Assembly: GCA_018674305.1 (NCBI GenBank)
Contig: JABHAL010000013.1
Span: 8,553 to 72,552, forward strand
From: Candidatus Falkowbacteria bacterium
Lineage (GTDB): Bacteria; Patescibacteriota; Patescibacteriia; UBA11705; JABHMO01
DNA: 64,000 bases
Direction: 5' to 3'
Each line of letters opens with the position of its first letter. Position 1 is the first letter of the stretch. Shown piece by piece: positions 28,086-55,767 of this stretch. Both the position numbers and the translations under genes were made by a program. Below the pieces are notes generated by a model. The model did not search any database. It saw nothing but the letters and a program-made list of their open reading frames with translations, and was not told where the DNA came from.

Positions 28086-28835
28086 ATGAAGTTGTTGGTA
28101 GTTCTTGGTGTACTATTGTTTATGTGTACCCAATGTATCAAGGAAATGGAGTTTGGTGAGTGGCATGGTGAAATTCCTGGGGATAATCTTCAAGACGTGA
28201 CAGGTGTTGACGCCAAAGATTTAACTGACACAATCGAGCCAGTCGATACTATTGATCCGATTGACACGATTGAACCAGTTGATACAGTTGATCCGATTGA
28301 CACGGTCGATCCAATCGACAATATTGATCCTATCGATACAATTGACCCAATTGACACGTTTTCAGAGATAGTTAAGGAAGTCATAGTTCCAATTGAAACA
28401 CAGTTAGAAGTGATTGAGTGTGCTCCAGGTTACCAGTATGACCCGGAGTCGGGTGAATGTGTTTCATTTTGTCCAGCTGATAAATATTACGAAGAGCAAT
28501 TGGGGCAGTGTTTTTTCTATCCCTGTTGTGACTTGAATTCACAGTGGTCAGTTAGCGTGATGGATACTGAAACATCTTTGTTCACTATTTATCAGTTGAA
28601 CTTGAATCAGCAGGTTGCTTATTTGCAAGGAGAACTAACGTTAGCGTCTCCACCTGAAATTGGTAACTGTGTTGGGCATTTACAGAAAAAAGAATTCACA
28701 CTTACTTGTCAAAATGCTGAATACAGCTTACTTCTAACGTCAGAAACCACTTTAGAAGGGGAGGTTTTTGGGTTTTATAGTTATAGCTTTATTGATGGAA
28801 CTTTTCAAAACGGTCCGTTCAATATGACTAAATAA
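28086..28835 (+). CDS. secreted/lipoprotein-like Cys-rich protein with (DPIDTI)n repeat region
   Basis: Strong SD (aGGGGGAGGaATG) and a signal peptide (MKLLVVLGVLLFMCTQC). A tandem DTIEPV/DPIDTV repeat is followed by a C-terminal ~150-aa domain with about 8 Cys, which is ~85-90% identical to its paralog at 28955..29734. Confidence 0.6.
   Translation: MKLLVVLGVLLFMCTQCIKEMEFGEWHGEIPGDNLQDVTGVDAKDLTDTIEPVDTIDPIDTIEPVDTVDPIDTVDPIDNIDPIDTIDPIDTFSEIVKEVIVPIETQLEVIECAPGYQYDPESGECVSFCPADKYYEEQLGQCFFYPCCDLNSQWSVSVMDTETSLFTIYQLNLNQQVAYLQGELTLASPPEIGNCVGHLQKKEFTLTCQNAEYSLLLTSETTLEGEVFGFYSYSFIDGTFQNGPFNMTK
28227..28358 (+). repeat. 18-nt (hexapeptide DPIDT[IV]) tandem repeat inside CDS
   Basis: About 7 tandem copies of gatccgattgacacgatt variants, in frame. 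Confidence 0.8.
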
Positions 28836-28872: not shown

Positions 28873-28954
28873 AATTATAAATCAGAACTTGACAATCTTC
28901 TGTATTTATATTAAACTATTATATAATTTGATTGTTCTTTATAGGGAGGAAGAA

Positions 28955-29734
28955 ATGAGACAACAGAATATACTTTTGTTTATTCTAGTGCAAGTTGTTC
29001 TTATGGCATGTATCAGTAAACCACCACCTTGGCGACCAGATGGCTGGCTTGAAGTGACTAAAGAGGTTTTTCTTGATGTTAATGAAATCAAGGTAGTTGA
29101 TCAGTTCGAAGTAAAGTACGATATGACGGCTCTTGAATTAAAAGAAGTAGAAACGAAAGATTTTATTGCTGTTGGGGATGAATATGATGCTAGTGATCAA
29201 GGTGAGGTAGAGCTTATTGATCTTGTTGCGGAGTTGTTAGATCAAAAAACACAAAAGGATCTGGAGATCTTAGATTATTTTGGTGAGCTAGATCAGTTTG
29301 AAGAGGAAGTCATTGAGTGTCCTCAGGGTTATCAATATGATCCTGAAGCAGGGGAGTGTGTTTCGTTTTGTCCGGCAGATAAGTATTATGAAGATAAGTT
29401 GGGCCAGTGTTTTTTCTATCCTTGCTGTGACTTAAATGCACAATGGTCAGTTAGCGTGATGGATACTGAAACATCTTCGTTTACTGTTTATCAAGTGAAA
29501 TTGAATCAGCAGGTTGCCTATTTGCAAGGAGAATTGACGCTAACGTCTCCATCTGAAATTGCTAACTGTGTGGGGTATTTACAGAAAAAAGAATTCGCAC
29601 TTACTTGTCAAAATGCTCAGTACAGCTTACTTCTAACGTCAGAGACCACTTCAGAAGATGAGGTTTTTGGGTTTTACAGTTATAGCTTTACTGATGGAAC
29701 TTTTCAAAACGGTCCGTTTAATATGTCAAAGTAA
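28955..29734 (+). CDS. secreted/lipoprotein-like Cys-rich protein (paralog of 28086..28835)
   Basis: The start is set at MRQQNILLFILVQVVLMAC (LMAC lipobox-like), preceded by the SD agGGAGGaagaaATG. It has an acidic variable N-terminus. The C-terminal Cys-rich domain is near-identical at the DNA level to 28400-28835. Confidence 0.6.
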   Translation: MRQQNILLFILVQVVLMACISKPPPWRPDGWLEVTKEVFLDVNEIKVVDQFEVKYDMTALELKEVETKDFIAVGDEYDASDQGEVELIDLVAELLDQKTQKDLEILDYFGELDQFEEEVIECPQGYQYDPEAGECVSFCPADKYYEDKLGQCFFYPCCDLNAQWSVSVMDTETSSFTVYQVKLNQQVAYLQGELTLTSPSEIANCVGYLQKKEFALTCQNAQYSLLLTSETTSEDEVFGFYSYSFTDGTFQNGPFNMSK

Positions 29735-29785: not shown

Positions 29786-30961
29786 TTATCTCCGATTGTT
29801 ATTACAGCGTGGTAGTCCCCAGTTGAACCAAGAACAAGTTTTTTCCTTGGTTGACGTGCAGATACCTTGCTGACACGCCAGTTCCATTTTGGGTTCATAC
29901 CGATTGATATCCACTGAGATTTCAATTAATTCAGCAATTTTTTCAATCGGCATAATCGTTGGAGTCACGTCGGGTGTCGATAGACTGCCATTCAAAATGA
30001 AATGCCCAGATTTGCCAGAGCAATGGAAATACCATCTTCGCATCGGTCCATCGCCTTCCTTCATTAGAGCCTGCCAGTTCGTGACTGTGACAGAGCCAAG
30101 AGCTTTTTGCTCTTCGAGTCGCAGCATCAGAATCAAGCTGTACAATTTCAGGTTGGCCTGTTTCTTGGTGTGAACCATGGTCTGGCCAGTAGATTTCATT
30201 TGCAGAACAATGTCAGCACCTTTGTACCTGCCTGCCTTGGCCATTTCACTGCTGTCAGATTTGATGACCAAAAGCTGTAGCTTTCTGCCTTTACCAGGTC
30301 CTGGGATTTCTCGCATGTCCCCGTTGGATTCCAACTCGGCAACTGCAGCATTGAATTGATCAGATTGCTCTTTTCTTGCAGCGGCGATGTGATCATCCCA
30401 AAGCTTAATGATGTCAGGCCGGTTAGCAAAGTGGCCATGTACAACATTTGACACATTGGCAACCGCGAAGACGTACTTCTTCTTTGGGACACTGAACATT
30501 GACTGGAAAGCAGTAAGTCCCCAGTTAATGTTTCTGATCTGACTGTGTGGCATCACCCGTCGGAGAAGGTTGATGCAAGAGGCCAGTCCGTTTCGAACGT
30601 CAATACCCTCAATATCTGCAGAGTACAGATACTTGAGAATTTCTTTGACGTTTGGCAAATTTGAAACCCCCAATGACTTGGCAACCAGTGTGGCTGCGCA
30701 ATCTTTTTTGTCTCTTGCTTTGCCAGTGCCATTGTCTGGGTGTTCGTCGAATTCGTTTCCCATTGTGCCAACGATAACGACACCACCAGACGTGTGTTCC
30801 GCCACCCACTCGGGAGTAGCATACCTCTCGATGAGAACAGCTGCTGCGATTTCGTCTGCGTGTGGACCAACGTGGGTTAAAAACCACAGAGCCTCTCCTG
30901 CCGCAAAAATAGGGAAACGGACATAGTTACTGTGTTCTTCAAGCCTAGATAGCTGGTTCAA
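29786..30961 (-). CDS. hypothetical protein, compositionally atypical (about 47% GC vs ~35% background)
   Basis: 391 aa. Uninterrupted ORF with a C-terminal Cys-rich tail (CQQGICTSTKEKTCSWFNWGLPRC). GC content is clearly higher than in flanking DNA. It lies adjacent to the tRNA pair. Confidence 0.5.
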   Translation of the reverse strand: MNQLSRLEEHSNYVRFPIFAAGEALWFLTHVGPHADEIAAAVLIERYATPEWVAEHTSGGVVIVGTMGNEFDEHPDNGTGKARDKKDCAATLVAKSLGVSNLPNVKEILKYLYSADIEGIDVRNGLASCINLLRRVMPHSQIRNINWGLTAFQSMFSVPKKKYVFAVANVSNVVHGHFANRPDIIKLWDDHIAAARKEQSDQFNAAVAELESNGDMREIPGPGKGRKLQLLVIKSDSSEMAKAGRYKGADIVLQMKSTGQTMVHTKKQANLKLYSLILMLRLEEQKALGSVTVTNWQALMKEGDGPMRRWYFHCSGKSGHFILNGSLSTPDVTPTIMPIEKIAELIEISVDINRYEPKMELACQQGICTSTKEKTCSWFNWGLPRCNNNRR

Positions 30962-31203
30962 TTTGCACCTCCAATTTTGTTAAATTACAATATAGTAACT
31001 AATCAGTATAACACAGATGAGATATTTTGTCAACACTTATGTAAAATTAGGCAAATATTGCGGTATTTTTATTACTCGACAAAATTGTTAATTTTTGCTA
31101 CTATATACCCAGCTTTACTATAATGTTCGTATAGCTATCGGTAGGGATCGCCACGATCGAAATTGTAAGTATTGAATAAAATATAAATACATCTGGTTCT
31201 TGC

Positions 31204-31279
31204 GCTCGTATAGCTCAGGGGTTAGAGCACCACGCTTATAACGTGGGGGTCGATGGTTCAATCCCATCTACGAGCACCA
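31204..31279 (+). tRNA. tRNA-Ile (anticodon UAU)
   Basis: Manual fold: acceptor gctcgta/tacgagc, D stem gctc/gagc, anticodon stem ccacg/cgtgg with loop cuUAUaa, T arm gatgg-ttcaatc-ccatc, discriminator a and encoded CCA. Confidence 0.75.
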
Positions 31280-31328
31280 GTTGTATTTATATTTTGAGAC
31301 TCGACGCAATTTTATTTACGAGTACTAG

Positions 31329-31405
31329 GGACGCTTAGCTCAGTTGGTTAGAGCGCATCGTTGACGTCGATGAGGTCAGTGGTTCGACTCCACTAGCGTC
31401 CACCA
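31329..31405 (+). tRNA. tRNA-Val (anticodon GAC)
   Basis: Acceptor ggacgct/agcgtcc, D stem gctc/gagc, anticodon stem catcg/cgatg with loop ttGACgt, T arm agtgg-ttcgact-ccact, encoded CCA. Confidence 0.85.
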
Positions 31406-31440
31406 AAAAATCATCAATTTACTTTGGTGTTTTTTTATTA

Positions 31441-31510
31441 CGGTCTATGGTTCGCCCAGCATACGCTGGGCGCCCGGCGTATGCCGGGCGACTCCACTAG
31501 CGTCCACCAT
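31441..31510 (+). repeat. partial copy of tRNA-Val T-arm/acceptor 3' end interrupted by two GC-rich hairpins
   Basis: tggttcg + [cccagc-atac-gctggg][cgcccggc-gtat-gccgggcg] + gactccactagcgtccacca. The last 20 nt are identical to tRNA-Val 31386-31405. A terminator hairpin (gcaccg...cggtgcTTTTT) follows at about 31513-31545. Confidence 0.6.
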
Positions 31511-31591
31511 GAAGCACCGGTATTTAGTTGACGGTGCTTTTTGGTTTAAATGATGTTATAATAGAACCGAATAAAAAATAAAAAGTATATT

Positions 31592-34249: not shown

Positions 34250-37200
34250 ATGGACAAAACCTATCAATCAAAAAAATTCGAAGACAAGATTTATAAAAAC
34301 TGGATAAAAAAAGATTTATTCAATCCAGACAAATACACCGGAGAACCATATTCAATAATGATGCCACCACCAAACGTGACCGGTGTTTTGCATTTGGGCC
34401 ATGCTTTGGAAAATTCTTTAATGGACTCAATGGCGCGTTATCAGAGATTGCAAGGCAAAAAAGTTTTACTTTTACCAGGTGTAGATCATGCTGCAGTGGC
34501 AACTCAAGCCAAGGTCGAAAAGATTTTGATTGAACAAGGCATGGAAAATCCTAGGCAAGAACTGGGTAGGGACAAGTTATTAGAAAAAGTTAAAAAATAC
34601 GCGGATGAGTCACGTGACACAATTCTAAAGCAAATTCGAAGGATGGGGACCAGTTGTGATTGGAGTCGTTTTGCTTATACATTTGATAAAGAAAGAAATC
34701 AAGCTGTAAATAAGGTCTTTAAGAAAATGTATGACGACGGCCTGATTTATCGTGGGTACAAAGTAATTAATTGGTCAGTCAAGGGTCAGTCAACTTGTTC
34801 AGATGATGAACTTGAACATAAAGAACGAGAAGCGAAGTTGTATACTTTTAAATATTCAAAAGATTTCCCAATTGAAATCGCGACTACACGACCGGAAACT
34901 AAACTTGGTGATACTGCAGTGGCAGTCAATCCAAAAGATAAACGTTATAAAAAATATATTGGACAAGAGCTTGAAGTTGATTTTTGTGGTAATAAGTTGA
35001 AACTAAAAATAATCTCTGACCCAGAAGTAGATCCAGATTTTGGGACTGGTGCGCTTGGGGTTACGCCGGCTCATAGTCCAGTTGATTTTGAAATGTATGA
35101 AAAGCAAAAAGCACTGAAACAGCCAATTGGTTTAATTCCGGTGATTGGAGCTGACGGAAAAATGACCAAAATGGCTGGCGCAGAGTTTGTGGGATTAAGC
35201 GTAGAAAAAGCTCGGGATAAAGTTGTTAAAAAACTCAAAGCTAACGGTTTATTTATAAAAGAAGAAGATATAATGCAAAACGTGGGAACTTCAGATCGTT
35301 TCGGTGACGTGGTAGAAGCAATTCCAATGACTCAATGGTTTGTTGATGTGAACAAAGAGATCCCAGGTAAGAAAAAAAGTTTAAAACAATTAATGACGCA
35401 GGCCGTTAACAAAGGACATAAAGGAAAAGGTGATCAGAAGATCAATATTGCTCCTCAGCATTTTGAAAAAATATATTTTCAGTGGATTGATAATTTGCGT
35501 GACTGGTGCATTTCTCGGCAGATTTGGTTTGGCCATCGTATCCCTGTTTGGTACAAAGAAGGAAATTCAGTTGTCGGAATTCGCCATGGTGAAGCAGAAA
35601 ATAATGCTCAGGATTATTTAAATGGTGATATTGATAATAATCATTTTGCATTAACAAAAAAGGGTCAAAAACAAGTTGAACAAGCGGCTGAAGAATTAGC
35701 AGATCAAAAATTTGATTTAATTTATACTTCTGATTTTCTACGAACTAAGCAAACTGCAAAAATTTTAGCTGACAAGTTGGGAGTTAAACAGGTGATTGAA
35801 GACCCTCGTTTACGGGAATATGGTATGGGCGAATTTGAAGGTAATGCAGATGGTAGTTTGAGTAGATGCCGTTGTGGTCACTTTGCTGATTGGAAAAATG
35901 CTAATCCTCATGGAGTTGAATCATGGACAAGTGTTTACGGTAGAACTATGGCTGTGTTAGAAGAAATAAAACAAAAACATACTGATAAAAAAGTTTTAAT
36001 TGTCTCTCATGGTGAAATTCTTCGTTATATATCTTCTTATGGCAGAAACTTAGAGCCAGAACAAACCTTTTTACTCCCTTATCCTCAGAACGCTGGAACA
36101 ATCAAGGTGGATTTAAATGAAGAACAAATTAAAGTGAGTGATCAACCAGTCAATGATCCAGGTTGGCATCAAGACCCTGACACTTTGGATACCTGGTTTT
36201 CTTCAGGGTTGTGGACATTCTCAACTTTAGGTTGGCCGGAGAACAATAAGGAAAAAAATAAAGAAAAAAAGAAAATAATAAACGACTTAAAAACTTTTCA
36301 CCCGACCAGCTGGATGCAAATGGGATATGAGCTTTTATTTTTTTGGATGGCTAGAATGATTTTGATGTCCACTTACGTTATGGACGAAATCCCTTTTAAG
36401 AATGTTTACATTCACGGTATGCTCCGTGACGAAAAAGGCCAGAAGTTTTCTAAGTCAGCAGGTAATGGTGTGGATCCAATTGAAGTTATTGATAAATATG
36501 GAGCAGATGCTCTACGTTGGGCACTGTTGATTGGCATTTCCCCTGGTAATGACTCTGCTTTTTACGACGAAAAAGTTGAAAGTGCTCGAAATTTAGTCAA
36601 TAAACTTTGGAATGTGTCGCGTTATATTATAGGAGATATAGGTGATAAAGGAGATAGAGGAGAGAACAAAGAGACCTTAGCTGATGCGTGGATTTTATCA
36701 CGATTTAATCAACTCAAGGAGCGAGTAACAAAATTATTGGATGAATTTAATTTCTCAGCAGCAGGTGAAGAGCTACGAGAGTTTACTTGGAGTGAATTTG
36801 CGGATTGGTACATCGAAATATCAAAAATCAAAGATCAAAATTCTGAATTAAGAAAGAAAATTTTAGTAAAAATTCTCAAAGAGCTCTTGGTTATGTGGCA
36901 CCCGTATGTGCCTTTTGTTACCCAAGCGATATGGCAACAGTTTGATCCCAAAGAAGATATAATGATAACTCAGTGGCCAAAGGTGGATAAAGCTTTAATT
37001 AACAAGCCAAAGGAACAAAAATTTGCTATAATTAAGGAGGTAATTATTAAAATTCGTAATTTACGGTCAGAGTACAAAATAGATCCAGGCAAAAGAATAA
37101 AGGTGTTATTGAAAACTGATAAGCCTTTTGTTGAAGAGAATAAGGATGTTATAATCGTCTTGGCTCGTTTGGAACAACTTGATTTTGTAGACCATAAACC

Positions 37201-37465
37201 GGAGAAAGCAGCCTCAGCCGTTGTCGATGGGGTGGAGGTTTATTTACCGTTAGCAGATATTCTTGATCCTGAAAAGGAAAAACAGCGGTTGGTATCTGAG
37301 AAAAGCAATTTGGAAACTTTTGTTGGTAACCTAGAAAAGAAATTAAGCAACAAACAGTTCATTTCTAATGCTCCAAAACAAGTAGTTGAAATTGAAAAAC
37401 AAAAGTTGAAAACAGCACAGGAAAATTTATCTAAAATACAACAACAAATAATTAACTTGAATTAA
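34250..37465 (+). CDS. valS: valyl-tRNA synthetase with inserted histidine-phosphatase (PGM-family) domain
   Basis: HIGH (PPPNVTGVLHLGHA), KMSKS (KFSKSAGN), the WCISRQIWFGHRIPVWY and DTWFSSGLW motifs, and a C-terminal coiled coil. 1071 aa against ~880 typical. The extra ~180 aa at aa ~443-625 carry RHGE...LTKKGQ...LIYTSDFLRTKQTA...DPRLREYGMG...LIVSHGEIL. Confidence 0.95.
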   Translation: MDKTYQSKKFEDKIYKNWIKKDLFNPDKYTGEPYSIMMPPPNVTGVLHLGHALENSLMDSMARYQRLQGKKVLLLPGVDHAAVATQAKVEKILIEQGMENPRQELGRDKLLEKVKKYADESRDTILKQIRRMGTSCDWSRFAYTFDKERNQAVNKVFKKMYDDGLIYRGYKVINWSVKGQSTCSDDELEHKEREAKLYTFKYSKDFPIEIATTRPETKLGDTAVAVNPKDKRYKKYIGQELEVDFCGNKLKLKIISDPEVDPDFGTGALGVTPAHSPVDFEMYEKQKALKQPIGLIPVIGADGKMTKMAGAEFVGLSVEKARDKVVKKLKANGLFIKEEDIMQNVGTSDRFGDVVEAIPMTQWFVDVNKEIPGKKKSLKQLMTQAVNKGHKGKGDQKINIAPQHFEKIYFQWIDNLRDWCISRQIWFGHRIPVWYKEGNSVVGIRHGEAENNAQDYLNGDIDNNHFALTKKGQKQVEQAAEELADQKFDLIYTSDFLRTKQTAKILADKLGVKQVIEDPRLREYGMGEFEGNADGSLSRCRCGHFADWKNANPHGVESWTSVYGRTMAVLEEIKQKHTDKKVLIVSHGEILRYISSYGRNLEPEQTFLLPYPQNAGTIKVDLNEEQIKVSDQPVNDPGWHQDPDTLDTWFSSGLWTFSTLGWPENNKEKNKEKKKIINDLKTFHPTSWMQMGYELLFFWMARMILMSTYVMDEIPFKNVYIHGMLRDEKGQKFSKSAGNGVDPIEVIDKYGADALRWALLIGISPGNDSAFYDEKVESARNLVNKLWNVSRYIIGDIGDKGDRGENKETLADAWILSRFNQLKERVTKLLDEFNFSAAGEELREFTWSEFADWYIEISKIKDQNSELRKKILVKILKELLVMWHPYVPFVTQAIWQQFDPKEDIMITQWPKVDKALINKPKEQKFAIIKEVIIKIRNLRSEYKIDPGKRIKVLLKTDKPFVEENKDVIIVLARLEQLDFVDHKPEKAASAVVDGVEVYLPLADILDPEKEKQRLVSEKSNLETFVGNLEKKLSNKQFISNAPKQVVEIEKQKLKTAQENLSKIQQQIINLN

Positions 37466-48813: not shown

Positions 48814-48952
48814 GAGCAGTAATTGGTAATCAGTCCCGATGAATCAGCAAAGCTGATTATCGGGATCCCGCCTTACGTCGGGATAATTAGTAACTAGTAA
48901 ATAGTAGTGAGTAACTAAATAATTTTTTAAACTAGATCAAAATTCAAAGAAC

Positions 48953-55498: not shown

Positions 55499-55584
55499 GC
55501 CCAGGTGGTGGAATTGGTATACACACATGGTTGAGGGCCATGGCTCTCCGGGGCGTGCGGGTTCAAGTCCCGCTCTGGGCACCA
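55499..55584 (+). tRNA. tRNA-Leu (anticodon GAG), type II with long variable arm
   Basis: Acceptor gcccagg/tctgggc (G7-U66), anticodon stem catgg/ccatg with loop ttGAGgg, variable arm gctctccggggcgt, T arm gcggg-ttcaagt-cccgc, discriminator a and encoded CCA. Confidence 0.8.
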
Positions 55585-55590
55585 CTATGT

Positions 55591-55658
55591 AAACAGGGGT
55601 TCAGCCGGCATGCGCCGGCTGCCCGGCGAATGCCGGGCAAGTCCCGCTCTGGGCACCA
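55591..55658 (+). repeat. partial copy of tRNA-Leu T-arm/acceptor 3' end interrupted by two GC-rich hairpins
   Basis: aggggttca + [gccggc-atgc-gccggc][tgcccggc-gaat-gccgggca] + agtcccgctctgggcacca. The last 21 nt are identical to tRNA-Leu 55564-55584. The second hairpin shares the core gcccggcgWatgccgggc with the element at 31441..31510. Confidence 0.6.
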
Positions 55659-55767
55659 TAAGAATTTTATTATTAAAAATAAGATTCTTTTTTTGTTGAT
55701 AAATTTTTTATATATAAGCATAAATATGGTATAATTTAATTGCATAATTATTAATTGCGTATATTTT

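What the first reader, a model, noticed from the sequence alone, without database searches (positions are those of the whole stretch)
31386..31545. tRNA-Val followed by a partial copy of its own T-arm/3' end split by a pair of GC-rich hairpins
The 20 nt gactccactagcgtccacca (tRNA-Val 3' end including CCA) recur 85 nt downstream. In the copy the T-loop is interrupted after ttcg by cccagcATACgctggg + cgcccggcGTATgccgggcg, two perfect GC-rich hairpins in an AT-rich genome. A terminator follows. The same architecture, with a related second hairpin, occurs after tRNA-Leu at 55591. It resembles an att-site duplication, or a small tRNA-targeting insertion element or scar. Alternatively it could be a structured tRNA-like RNA that is processed or acts as a decoy.
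Basis: seen in the sequence. Interest (0 to 1): 0.68.

Follow-up and report, generated by a model that had tools for sequence, protein, structure and literature searches.

The report
Hairpin scars of tRNA-targeting mobile element
Two tRNA genes in this Patescibacteria genome are each followed by a copy of their own 3' end split by a symmetric GC-rich double hairpin; related genomes show this is the gene-less footprint of an apparently undescribed selfish DNA element, associated with a small GIY-YIG nuclease, that inserts into the T-loop sequence of tRNA genes while leaving a working tRNA copy.

Summary
tRNA-Val(GAC) and tRNA-Leu(GAG) are each followed by a copy of tRNA nt 51-76. In that copy a 36-nt pair of perfect GC-rich hairpins sits between T-loop nt 57 and 58.

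It is not a private oddity. A metagenome scan found 42 distinct units of the same design in low-GC, Patescibacteria-like contigs, all beside same-strand tRNA genes. The unit is two-fold symmetric and sits in the near-palindromic TTCG|AA. Its flanking CR dinucleotide is repeated, and the centre dinucleotide is complementary to it.

It comes in two mirror forms:
- intact tRNA followed by a 3' tail copy, as in the window;
- a copy of tRNA nt 1-57 followed by an intact tRNA.

In many loci an 82-90-aa stand-alone GIY-YIG nuclease gene (UPF0213/SLX1-like, dN/dS about 0.1) lies between the hairpins and the intact tRNA.

Syntenic relatives have the same tRNA-Val and tRNA-Leu loci without the unit. The window has no nuclease gene. 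A contig that is probably from the same genome has a third unit (tRNA-His) and a divergent GIY-YIG gene.

Best reading: nuclease-less DNA-level footprints of a tRNA-gene-targeting selfish element. The mechanism is inferred, not shown. I found no published description.

The parts
31204..31279 (+). tRNA-Ile(UAU), first gene of the Ile-Val tRNA operon (context; carries no unit)
   Evidence: ARAGORN; Rfam tRNA, 71 bits
31329..31405 (+). Intact tRNA-Val(GAC) with encoded CCA; T-loop TTCGACT
   Evidence: ARAGORN; Rfam, 68 bits
31406..31447 (+). Spacer between the tRNA and the unit; forms an A/U-flanked weak hairpin (UCAUCAA/UUGGUG) plus a T-run
   Evidence: Sequence; fold
31448..31454 (+). Copy of tRNA-Val nt 51-57 (tggttcg): the 5' half of a pseudo T-arm
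   Evidence: Sequence; identity to the tRNA starts at nt 51
31455..31490 (+). Double-hairpin element: hp1 cccagcATACgctggg, centre cg, hp2 cccggcGTATgccggg, repeated cg
   Evidence: covariance model 74.4 bits, E 1.6e-22
31491..31509 (+). Tail copy of tRNA-Val nt 58-76 including CCA, 19/19 identical
31511..31545 (+). Hairpin (9-bp stem, 12-nt loop) plus U-run; probable terminator of the tRNA operon
   Evidence: Fold; not found by the strict consensus scan
55499..55584 (+). Intact tRNA-Leu(GAG) with encoded CCA; T-loop TTCAAGT
   Evidence: ARAGORN; Rfam, 50 bits
55585..55596 (+). 12-nt spacer
   Evidence: Sequence
55597..55603 (+). Copy of tRNA-Leu nt 51-57 (gggttca)
   Evidence: Sequence
55604..55639 (+). 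Double-hairpin element: gccggcATGCgccggc, centre tg, cccggcGAATgccggg, repeated ca. A 50-nt core is identical to the tRNA-His unit of L128.
   Evidence: covariance model 70.5 bits; identity to L128
55640..55658 (+). Tail copy of tRNA-Leu nt 58-76 including CCA, 19/19 identical
55660..55696 (+). A/U-rich hairpin plus T-run; probable terminator
   Evidence: Fold

Best explanation
**What it is.** The two units are nuclease-less ('solo') DNA-level footprints of a family of selfish elements in Patescibacteria that target tRNA genes.

**The full element, seen in other genomes.** Its order is:
1. a pseudo-copy of tRNA nt 1-57;
2. the double hairpin;
3. A.TCC plus 8-35 nt;
4. an 82-90-aa stand-alone GIY-YIG nuclease gene;
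5. 5-30 nt, then an intact tRNA;
6. a spacer, GGTTCR, a second double hairpin, and a tail copy of nt 58-76.

**What is shown.**
- The hairpin pair sits exactly in the T-loop DNA motif TTCR|A.
- The CR dinucleotide is repeated on both sides.
- The same unit also sits in a pseudo-tRNA-Ser anticodon loop that reads CTCG|AAATC.
- The unit is absent from syntenic loci of relatives.
- The unit has been copied between different tRNA loci of what is probably one genome.
- The nuclease genes are under purifying selection.

**What is inferred.**
- The nuclease, probably as a dimer, cuts TTCR|A or the extruded hairpins and leaves 2-nt 3' overhangs.
- The element enters by break repair or ligation.
- The resident tRNA gene is split into flanking halves. 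The element supplies an intact tRNA, or the missing tRNA part, so the cell survives.
- Recombination between the 57-nt 5' repeats then deletes the left hairpin and the nuclease gene. That leaves 'intact tRNA, spacer, GGTTCR, hairpins, tail', which is what the window shows at tRNA-Val and tRNA-Leu.
- In the window the units are most likely inert passengers, co-transcribed in the tRNA trailers.
For: **A real family.**
- 64 metagenome loci matched the pattern; 56 matches are true double hairpins in low-GC contigs.
- There are 42 distinct units.
- All lie beside same-strand tRNA genes.

**Two mirror forms.**
- 12 are type A, 11 are type B, and the other 19 have diverged flanks.
- None has both tRNA halves contiguous around the hairpins.

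**Link to a GIY-YIG gene.**
- 9 units have the ORF within 60 nt downstream and 5 have one upstream on the same strand.
- Pfam PF01541 gives E 1e-17 to 1e-15.
- All 5 family members picked by protein similarity alone lie 5-7 nt upstream of an intact tRNA-Ser, behind a pseudo-tRNA-Ser 5' piece with hairpins.

**Split resident gene.**
- In L195 the left pseudo 5' strand (GGAGAGG) and the right tail (CCTCTCCGCCA) complement each other.
- They differ from the intact tRNA between them (GGAAGGG/CCCTTCCGCCA).
- L137 and L187 also have tRNA-like tails that differ from the adjacent tRNA.

**The target is a DNA sequence.** The unit also sits in the anticodon loop CTCG|AAATC of a pseudo-tRNA-Ser(CGA).

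**The duplications are DNA-level.**
- Homology runs 5 nt past the tRNA 3' end in L124.
- Homology runs 21 nt upstream of nt 1 in L146.

**Symmetry and covariation.**
- Either strand reads as a hairpin with an ATNC loop followed by one with a GNAT loop.
- The centre dinucleotide covaries with the flanks: 33 G-C, 6 A-U, 2 G-U, 1 unpaired.

**Empty sites.**
- tRNA-Leu loci of L197, L198 and L199 have the same synteny and orientation.
- tRNA-Val loci of L188 and L190 were compared as well.
- None of them has the unit.

**Copying within a genome.**
- The window's Leu unit shares 50/50 nt with the tRNA-His unit of L128, whose tetranucleotide correlation with the window is 0.982.
- L154 has one hairpin sequence in both a Lys-tail and a Thr-5' context.

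**The nuclease is maintained.**
- dN/dS is 0.05-0.16.
- Catalytic-type residues are invariant.
- The closest solved structures are UPF0213 and SLX1.

**Cut geometry.** GIY-YIG homing enzymes such as T4 SegB leave 2-nt 3' ends (PMC2330249 abstract), which matches the 2-nt CR repeat.
Against: - The window has no GIY-YIG gene or remnant. The link for these two copies is by family resemblance only.
- No nuclease activity, cut site or transposition intermediate has been shown.
- It is unexplained why the centre dinucleotide is complementary to the target dinucleotide. A simple 2-bp target duplication does not predict that.
- It is also unexplained how the intact tRNA copy escapes cutting.
- The empty sites come from relatives at 68-93% protein identity with non-alignable flanks. 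At the Val site the whole tRNA cassette is inverted in relatives. Exact insertion boundaries could therefore not be read.
- The nuclease gene's fixed position next to tRNA-Ser, with saturated dS between lineages, could also mean long-term vertical inheritance or domestication rather than active mobility.
- Most family members were collected with a pattern that required the GGTTCR...RA context. Their T-loop association is therefore partly built in. The A.TCC flank, the tRNA neighbours and the protein-first sample were not built in.
Confidence: 0.66

Rival explanations
1. The double hairpin is an independent miniature transposable element. Its two 16-nt hairpins are inverted repeats of each other, and it makes a 2-bp target duplication. 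It is mobilised in trans and specifically hits TTCR|A. Hits in essential tRNA genes survive only where a partial tandem duplicate exists. The adjacent GIY-YIG gene is the trans-acting enzyme, or merely a neighbour that shares the same insertion hot-spot.
For: - hp1 and hp2 are inverted copies (loops ATNC and GNAT), and the CR dinucleotide is repeated.
- Identical units occur at different tRNA loci of one genome.
- Many ORF-less copies exist, including both window copies.
- Single GC-rich hairpins also litter pseudo-tRNA copies.
Against: - This needs pre-existing partial tRNA duplicates at every site.
- The retained pseudo-part is always distal and runs to the tRNA end, while the proximal part is missing. 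Random decay does not predict that.
- Foreign-looking tails and the complementary flanking halves in L195 fit gene replacement better.
- In about 400 kb of fetched low-GC loci, no unit was found outside a TTCR|A tRNA-like context.
Confidence: 0.15
2. The unit is a functional RNA part of the tRNA precursor. It could be a 3'-end mimic (T-arm plus acceptor strand plus CCA) with two stabilising hairpins. Such an RNA might act as a processing signal, an exonuclease block, a decoy for tRNA-binding enzymes or toxins, or a terminator.
For: - It lies between the tRNA and a terminator-like hairpin, so it is probably co-transcribed.
- It folds much better than shuffles, z = -4.3 to -6.8.
- The stems show changes on both sides of the pair.
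Against: - The unit is symmetric on both DNA strands, and paired changes are expected for any DNA palindrome.
- At the stem positions the search pattern left free, departures are mismatches, not G-U pairs.
- It is absent from orthologous tRNA loci of relatives.
- It also occurs upstream of tRNAs in 5' pseudo-copies, in an anticodon loop, and in tandem arrays.
- Only 3 bp of T-stem and no 5' acceptor strand are present, so no tRNA-like minihelix can form.
- There is no Rfam family.
- Separate terminators follow both units.
Confidence: 0.08
3. The repeats are attL/attR remnants of integrase-mediated genomic islands that integrated at the T-loop of tRNA genes and later lost almost all of their content.
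For: - The identity block runs from the T-arm to CCA, as at many tRNA att sites (the general pattern is from my own knowledge).
- One related locus, L196, has a phage-integrase gene next to the tRNA-Ser.
Against: - Only 11-42 nt lie between the repeats in the window.
- The window tRNA regions have no called integrase, and none was seen in most related loci.
- The same symmetric 36-nt insert sits at the same T-loop position in 42 distinct loci.
- The mirror form duplicates the tRNA 5' part.
- The gene linked to the unit is a GIY-YIG nuclease, not a recombinase.
Confidence: 0.04
4. The unit is a REP/BIME-like or IS200/IS605-type palindrome-associated element moved by an HUH Y1 transposase (RAYT or TnpA). 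The centre dinucleotide would act as a guide that pairs with the cleavage and target dinucleotide.
For: - There are two subterminal hairpins.
- Insertion is 3' of a short fixed motif (TTCR).
- The covariation between a dinucleotide at the foot of a hairpin and the flanking cleavage dinucleotide resembles the IS608 guide-target logic (from my own knowledge).
Against: - No Y1 transposase domain appears among the genes called around the units.
- There is no GTAG or CGTC tag.
- The hairpins are in inverted rather than direct orientation.
- The gene that recurs next to the units is GIY-YIG.
Confidence: 0.05

Closest known systems
Free-standing GIY-YIG homing endonuclease genes in tRNA clusters (phage T4 SegB; PMC2330249)
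   Same: - A GIY-YIG nuclease gene sits among or next to tRNA genes.
- It is a selfish element inherited together with the flanking tRNA region.
- SegB leaves 2-nt 3' overhangs, which matches the 2-nt CR repeat here.
   Different: - SegB-type enzymes carry DNA-binding domains and recognise long asymmetric sites. Here the protein is the bare catalytic domain of 82-90 aa.
- SegB systems have no hairpin element and no partial duplication or replacement of the tRNA gene.
- SegB is in a phage; this is in bacterial chromosomes.
Double-hairpin elements (DHEs) and GC clusters of fungal mitochondria (Paquin et al. 2000, as cited in PMC10085805 and PMC2800124); GC-rich palindromes flanking Neurospora mitochondrial tRNA genes (Yin et al. 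1981, cited in PMC2800124)
   Same: - Short GC-rich elements that fold into two stem-loops.
- Found in AT-rich genomes and thought to be mobile.
- Sometimes associated with tRNA genes.
   Different: - Those are mitochondrial, mostly intergenic, and not tied to a fixed position inside a tRNA sequence.
- No 2-nt repeat was reported for the Allomyces elements (PMC2800124).
- No linked stand-alone GIY-YIG gene or tRNA part-duplication is described in the texts I read.
- Sequence relatedness was not tested.
Integrative elements that target tRNA genes and restore the 3' end (tyrosine-integrase islands and prophages)
   Same: - The tRNA stays intact because the incoming DNA carries a replacement for the displaced part.
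- The displaced resident end remains as a direct repeat that reaches the CCA.
   Different: - There is no integrase here.
- The repeats are 11-42 nt apart in the window.
- The insertion point carries a symmetric hairpin pair.
- A mirror form replaces the 5' part.
Mobile endonuclease ORF plus gene-fragment insertion in Allomyces mitochondrial atp6 (Paquin, Laforest and Lang 1994; from my own memory, not read here)
   Same: An endonuclease gene travels with a copy of part of its target gene. That copy replaces the resident end, which is pushed downstream as a pseudo-fragment.
   Different: - The target there is a protein-coding mitochondrial gene.
- I did not re-read the paper, so this is a lead and not a tested comparison.
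UPF0213 / bacterial Slx1-cluster GIY-YIG proteins (PDB 1zg2, 1ywl; PMC1564403)
   Same: - The associated nuclease belongs here by sequence.
- It is a single-domain protein related to the structure-specific nuclease SLX1, which cuts branched DNA. That fits a hairpin or cruciform substrate.
   Different: No tRNA-gene or hairpin-element association is reported for this cluster in PMC1564403, and their function is unknown.

Membership tests
Free-standing GIY-YIG homing endonuclease system | A GIY-YIG nuclease gene lies adjacent to the target gene | tested here: not met
   The window has no GIY-YIG gene or remnant (tblastn; profile HMM, best score 7.8 bits). The feature is met in at least 13 related loci. 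A divergent GIY-YIG gene is present in L128, probably the same genome.
Free-standing GIY-YIG homing endonuclease system | The nuclease has an added DNA-binding domain that recognises a long asymmetric site | tested here: not met
   The proteins are 77-137 aa with only PF01541. The closest solved structures are single-domain UPF0213 proteins.
Free-standing GIY-YIG homing endonuclease system | The nuclease cleaves the element-free allele at or near the insertion site | not testable with these tools
   This needs a biochemical assay. The only indirect hint is the 2-nt CR repeat.
Free-standing GIY-YIG homing endonuclease system | Presence/absence polymorphism among related genomes | tested here: met
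   The unit is absent at syntenic tRNA-Leu loci (L197-L199) and tRNA-Val loci (L188, L190).
[quoted passage not shown] | Terminal inverted repeats and no coding capacity | tested here: met
   hp1 and hp2 are inverted copies of one 16-nt hairpin consensus, and the unit is 34-36 nt.
[quoted passage not shown] | A target-site duplication of fixed length | tested here: inconclusive
   The CR dinucleotide is present on both sides in 36 of 42 units. The centre dinucleotide is complementary to it, which a plain duplication does not predict. No isogenic empty site was available.
[quoted passage not shown] | Many dispersed copies per genome | tested here: inconclusive
   There are 2 copies in 64 kb, plus 1 in 11.7 kb of L128. 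The whole genome could not be scanned.
Integrase att-site duplication at a tRNA gene | An integrase gene and kilobase-scale island lie between the direct repeats | tested here: not met
   Only 42 nt (Val) and 12 nt (Leu) lie between the tRNA and the copy.
Integrase att-site duplication at a tRNA gene | The direct repeat corresponds to the tRNA 3' segment | tested here: met
   tRNA nt 51-76 are repeated, interrupted by the hairpins.
REP/BIME or IS200/IS605-type palindromic element | An associated HUH Y1 transposase (RAYT or TnpA) and a GTAG or CGTC tag | tested here: not met
   The units have no such tag. No Y1 transposase domain appears among the genes called around the units. This was not an exhaustive genome search.
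tRNA intron (group I, or protein-spliced) | Complete tRNA exons on both sides of the insert | tested here: not met
   None of the 42 units has both tRNA halves contiguous. The window copies lack nt 1-50. The Patescibacteria tRNA introns described in PMC13011429 are group I introns at position 35/36.
Known structured RNA families (Rfam 15) | A match at the gathering score | tested here: not met
   Only the three tRNAs match.
Fungal mitochondrial double-hairpin elements | A GC-rich element that folds into two stem-loops in an AT-rich genome | tested here: met
   The resemblance is one of form only.
Fungal mitochondrial double-hairpin elements | Mitochondrial location and sequence relatedness to the fungal elements | not tested
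   The host is a Candidatus Falkowbacteria bacterium. No fungal element sequences were compared.

The most novel reading that the evidence does not exclude
This is a previously unrecognised class of bacterial selfish element, a 'tRNA-gene replacement drive'.
- A bare, SLX1/UPF0213-like GIY-YIG nuclease uses a two-fold symmetric double hairpin as its DNA substrate. It cuts at hairpin bases or at the palindromic TTCG|AA and leaves compatible 2-nt ends.
- The element inserts into the T-loop sequence of tRNA genes.
- It splits the resident gene and substitutes its own tRNA copy.
- The centre dinucleotide of the hairpin pair would specify the target dinucleotide.
- The hairpin units could then spread on their own to other tRNA genes in the same genome.
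Probability: 0.35. Interest if true: 0.85.

Novelty: new variant of a known kind. Interest (0 to 1): 0.7.

Why it matters
**For mobile-element biology.**
- It would add a third way for selfish DNA to exploit tRNA genes, besides integrase att sites and introns.
- It would give the bacterial stand-alone Slx1/UPF0213-type GIY-YIG proteins, whose role is unknown, a concrete and testable function and DNA substrate.
- It would show that double-hairpin elements, known from fungal mitochondria, have a bacterial counterpart with a candidate enzyme.

**For Patescibacteria genomics.**
- These bacteria have very small genomes and mostly single-copy tRNA genes, so an element that rewrites tRNA loci and moves tRNA alleles between lineages matters for their evolution.
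- The same processes leave pseudo-tRNA pieces and hairpin-riddled copies that confuse tRNA gene annotation.

**As a possible tool.** A compact nuclease with a short, programmable-looking target dinucleotide might be of interest.

Tried and rejected
1. **First genome-contig scan.** The pattern GTTCR-N20-CCCGGCNNNNGCCGGGNNA was too loose.
2. **Viral-contig scan with the specific pattern.** It gave 0 hits.
3. **Near-identical contigs.** All three were 100% identical across the region, so they held no polymorphism.
4. **Clean isogenic empty sites.**
   - The nearest relative (93% protein identity, L188) has the whole Ile-Val tRNA cassette inverted with different flanks.
   - The Leu relatives (71-76%) have non-alignable downstream flanks.
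   - Absence is clear, but the insertion boundaries are not.
5. **Literature searches.** Nine searches found no description of the arrangement. The Patescibacteria tRNA-intron paper concerns group I introns at 35/36 and never mentions hairpins or GIY-YIG.
6. **Retro-element or primer-binding-site idea.** The 19-nt tail equals the tRNA 3' end up to A58. I rejected the idea for two reasons.
   - GGTTCR is retained on the other side of the hairpins.
   - In other loci the duplications run past the mature tRNA ends.
7. **Hairpin-capped break ends or P-nucleotide origin of the hairpins.** Rejected, because the stems are unrelated to the flanking tRNA sequence.
8. **Remnant of the nuclease ORF in the window spacers.** None was found. 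The L160 remnant served as a positive control.
10. **Strict terminator scan.** Folding shows a long-loop hairpin with a U-run.
Full report
**1. The observation**

The window (35.6% GC) has three tRNA genes: Ile(UAU) at 31204-31279, Val(GAC) at 31329-31405 and Leu(GAG) at 55499-55584.

At the Val site:
- A 42-nt spacer follows tRNA-Val.
- Then comes tggttcg (31448-31454), which equals tRNA nt 51-57.
- Then come 36 nt made of cccagcATACgctggg, cg, cccggcGTATgccggg and cg (31455-31490).
- Then comes actccactagcgtccacca (31491-31509), which equals tRNA nt 58-76 including CCA.

At the Leu site:
- After a 12-nt spacer comes gggttca.
- Then gccggcATGCgccggc, tg, cccggcGAATgccggg and ca.
- Then agtcccgctctgggcacca (55597-55658).

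In both sites identity to the tRNA starts at nt 51 and ends at the CCA, and the insert lies between T-loop nt 57 and 58.

Evidence that this is not chance or artefact:
- The four hairpins are the only perfect GC-rich hairpins in 64 kb.
- The combined pattern occurs twice against 0.00 expected.
- The region is identical in three independent assemblies.
- Rfam sees only the tRNAs.

- The dinucleotide before the insert (CG in Val, CA in Leu) recurs after it, and its complement (CG, TG) sits between the hairpins. Either hairpin can therefore be 8 bp.
- hp1 is the inverted form of hp2.

**2. The host organism**

- An identical protein is named by NCBI as coming from a Candidatus Falkowbacteria bacterium.
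- Homologues of a second protein are from Parcubacteria-type Patescibacteria.
- The contig is JABHIS010000023.1 of MAG GCA_018670895.1.

**3. A widespread family**

- A first, loose scan of genomes was wasted on chance hits in GC-rich genomes.
- A specific pattern found nothing in viral contigs.
- The same pattern found 64 metagenome loci. Of the matches, 56 are true double hairpins in contigs of 32-53% GC, and 11 are chance hits in GC-rich contigs.
- A purely structural search of the fetched loci gave 42 distinct units.

Shared design:
- The layout is GGTTCR, hairpin, YG, hairpin, CR, A.TCC.
- The stems are [C/T/G/A]CC[C/G/A]GC.
- The first loop is ATNC-like and the second is GNAT-like, its reverse complement.
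- Because of this the unit reads the same way on both strands. It is two-fold symmetric and sits in the centre of the near-palindromic T-loop DNA TTCGAA.
- The dinucleotide triplets are CG/CG/CG in 30 units, CA/TG/CA in 6, and irregular in 6.
- The centre pyrimidine pairs with the purine on either side in 41 of 42 units, with six double changes. No search imposed this.
- At the stem positions the metagenome pattern left free, departures are mismatches, never G-T.

**4. Always beside tRNA genes, in two mirror forms**

Every unit lies next to a same-strand tRNA gene or pseudo-tRNA.
- Type A: intact tRNA, spacer, nt 5x-57, hairpins, nt 58-76. Examples are the window's Val and Leu, His, Arg and several Ser. 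There are 12 by exact match.
- Type B: a copy of tRNA nt 1-57, hairpins, A.TCC, 10-300 nt, then the intact tRNA. Examples are Pro, Arg, Met, Gln, Thr and Ser. There are 11 by exact match.
- The other 19 have diverged or foreign-looking tails, or 5' pseudo-parts riddled with further hairpins.
- None has both halves of a tRNA contiguous around the hairpins.
- Type A units can be tandemly repeated: three times in L135, and at least twice in L133, L138 and L154.

Two observations place the process at the DNA level:
- The duplications can run past the mature tRNA ends, by 5 nt in L124 and 21 nt in L146.
- In L138, L142 and L159 the upstream unit sits in the anticodon loop of a pseudo-tRNA-Ser(CGA), at CTCG|AAATC. 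That is the same TCG|AA motif as the T-loop.

**5. The linked gene**

- In L134, L135, L143, L144, L145, L151, L169 and L183 the unit is followed within 8-35 nt by an 82-90-aa ORF (MYYVYIL...). In L138, L142, L150, L159 and L168 such an ORF lies just upstream of the tRNA.
- It is a GIY-YIG catalytic domain and nothing else (PF01541, E 1e-17 to 1e-15).
- The ORF ends 5-30 nt before an intact tRNA.

The fullest layout, in L134, is:
1. pseudo-tRNA-Ser(UGA) nt 1-57;
2. hairpins;
3. AATCC plus 11 nt;
4. the ORF;
5. 6 nt, then the intact tRNA-Ser(UGA);
6. 37 nt, then degenerate hairpins and the tail.

In L160 the spacer is an internally deleted ORF remnant.

Independent sampling confirms the link:
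- A protein search found 304 relatives, mostly from Patescibacteria MAGs.
- All five members chosen by protein similarity alone lie 5-7 nt upstream of an intact tRNA-Ser. Each is preceded by a pseudo-tRNA-Ser 5' piece with the hairpin pair or its degenerate remains.

Properties of the nuclease:
- The genes are under purifying selection. dN/dS is 0.05-0.16 where dS is not saturated.
- Tyr, Arg, His and Glu positions typical of the GIY-YIG active site are invariant.
- The closest solved proteins are the single-domain UPF0213 proteins 1zg2 and 1ywl, then SLX1 and the UvrC N-terminal domain.
- The 2006 survey of the superfamily places such bacterial proteins in the Slx1 cluster. My term search of it found no mention of tRNA-gene linkage.

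**6. Evidence for gene splitting and replacement**

- In L195 the left pseudo 5' strand (GGAGAGG...) and the tail after the right, degenerate hairpins (...CCTCTCCGCCA) are complementary acceptor halves.
- The intact tRNA-Ser between them has GGAAGGG...CCCTTCCGCCA.
- In L137 and L187 the tails are tRNA-like but differ at many positions from the adjacent tRNA, while the hairpins are perfect.
- In L126 the pseudo 5' copy differs from the intact tRNA by changes on both sides of the stems.

All of this fits a resident gene that was split, with an intact tRNA of different ancestry placed between the halves.

**7. Gain in the window's lineage**

- tRNA-Leu site. Three relatives (71-76% identity of the neighbouring kinase) keep the order ArgRS, bactofilin, kinase, ferredoxin, tRNA-Leu(GAG), small ORF, UPF0102. 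Orientation is the same and the tRNA-Leu is almost identical, but there is no unit.
- tRNA-Val site. The 93% relative L188 has the same flanking genes, but the promoter-Ile-Val cassette is inverted. There tRNA-Val runs straight into a terminator. L190 (68%) also lacks the unit.
- The covariance model finds nothing in any of these loci.
- The flanks are too diverged, or rearranged, to read the exact boundaries.

**8. Copying within a genome**

- L128 comes from a 448-kb JGI contig. Its tetranucleotide profile correlates with the window at 0.982, higher than that of the 93% relative.
- It has a type A unit after tRNA-His. The 50-nt core of that unit is identical to the window's Leu unit, while the tails follow their own tRNAs.
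- L154 carries one hairpin sequence in both a Lys-tail and a Thr-5' context. L177 has two identical units.
- The window's Val unit differs by one loop base from a unit next to a GIY-YIG gene in L150/L175.
- The window has no GIY-YIG gene or remnant.
- L128 encodes a divergent 85-aa GIY-YIG protein (PF01541, E 4.6e-13). It lies right after tRNA-Thr(UGU), which is preceded by a hairpin-riddled pseudo-tRNA-Thr 5' copy.

**9. Most likely mechanism**

Shown:
- a DNA-sequence target (TTCR|A);
- a repeated 2-nt flank;
- a two-fold symmetric palindromic insert;
- partial tRNA duplications that always leave one intact tRNA;
- linkage to a maintained single-domain GIY-YIG nuclease;
- lineage-specific presence;
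- copying within a genome.

Inferred:
- The nuclease acts as a dimer on the palindromic site or on extruded hairpins, as its relative SLX1 acts on branched DNA.
- It leaves 2-nt 3' ends, as GIY-YIG homing enzymes such as SegB do (PMC2330249).
- The element enters by repair or ligation and splits the resident gene.
- The element's own tRNA, or tRNA part, keeps the cell alive.
- Homologous recombination between the 57-nt 5' repeats then removes the left hairpins and the ORF, giving type A solos as in the window.
- Recombination between the 19-nt 3' repeats gives type B.

Not explained:
- why the centre dinucleotide is complementary to the target dinucleotide;
- how the intact tRNA escapes cutting;
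- whether the hairpin pair can move alone.

**10. Rivals**

- An independent miniature transposon, with the nuclease acting only in trans, is the strongest rival.
- A functional RNA is unlikely for several reasons:
  - the unit is symmetric on both strands;
  - it is not conserved at orthologous loci;
  - it occurs in several different contexts;
  - it has no 5' acceptor strand.
- Integrase att scars and HUH-transposase elements lack their defining genes.

**11. Comparison with known systems and novelty**

The parts resemble known things:
- free-standing GIY-YIG homing endonucleases in tRNA clusters (T4 SegB);
- fungal mitochondrial double-hairpin elements and GC palindromes near mitochondrial tRNAs (PMC10085805, PMC2800124);
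- integrative elements that restore the tRNA end.

I found no description of this combination in bacteria in nine full-text searches. The library lacks most subscription journals, so prior description cannot be excluded.

I rate it a new variant of a known kind. The window's own copies are the nuclease-less footprints.

Noticed in passing
window 31000-31590, compared with L188 3568-4000: The whole promoter, tRNA-Ile, tRNA-Val cassette (about 400 nt) is inverted in the window relative to the 93%-identical relative L188, and also relative to L189 and L190. The flanking protein genes keep their order. The inversion may be linked to the event that added the hairpin unit.
   Followed up: partly
window 31204-31279: The tRNA-Ile has a UAU anticodon, which is an uncommon way for bacteria to read AUA. 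It is conserved in relatives L188-L190.
   Followed up: no
window 34250-37465: The valyl-tRNA synthetase carries an inserted histidine-phosphatase domain (PF00300) between halves of the catalytic domain. The domain is also present in the orthologues of relatives (gene tables).
   Followed up: no
window 48835-48883: Another intergenic pair of hairpins lies just after a stop codon: CCCGAT..ATCGGG, with a nested hairpin, then ATCCCG..CGGGAT. It resembles a motif in L175 at 1137-1184 and occurs only once in the window.
   Followed up: partly
window 28086-28835 and 28889-29734: Two tandem paralogous ORFs have nearly identical Cys-rich C-terminal halves and acidic repeat-rich N-terminal parts (DTIDPI repeats). 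They have no Pfam hits on record.
   Followed up: no
window 29786-30961 (minus strand): A 391-aa ORF next to the tRNA operon lies in the most GC-rich 2 kb of the window (42%). It has no NCBIfam match and no Pfam hit on record. It is conserved at the same place in L188.
   Followed up: partly
L128 7700-8700: In the contig that is probably from the same genome, a divergent GIY-YIG gene follows tRNA-Thr. Both are flanked by a second repeat family (ttcttcgctcc..ggagc..cgaatggcRcagcc) that also follows the tRNA-His tail. That repeat is absent from the window.
   Followed up: partly
L129, L141, L143-L145, L166, L169, L184, L185, L189, L192: Pseudo-tRNA copies in these Patescibacteria contigs carry additional single GC-rich hairpins in their D-loops, anticodon loops and T-loops. 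Disabled tRNA copies seem to accumulate palindromic inserts of several kinds.
   Followed up: partly
L196 2893-4231: A phage-type integrase and an HTH_17 gene lie immediately downstream of the tRNA-Ser that carries the GIY-YIG/hairpin module. Two different tRNA-targeting elements may therefore share one locus. The MAG is labelled Methanoregula, which looks like a binning error given the bacterial tRNA context.
   Followed up: no
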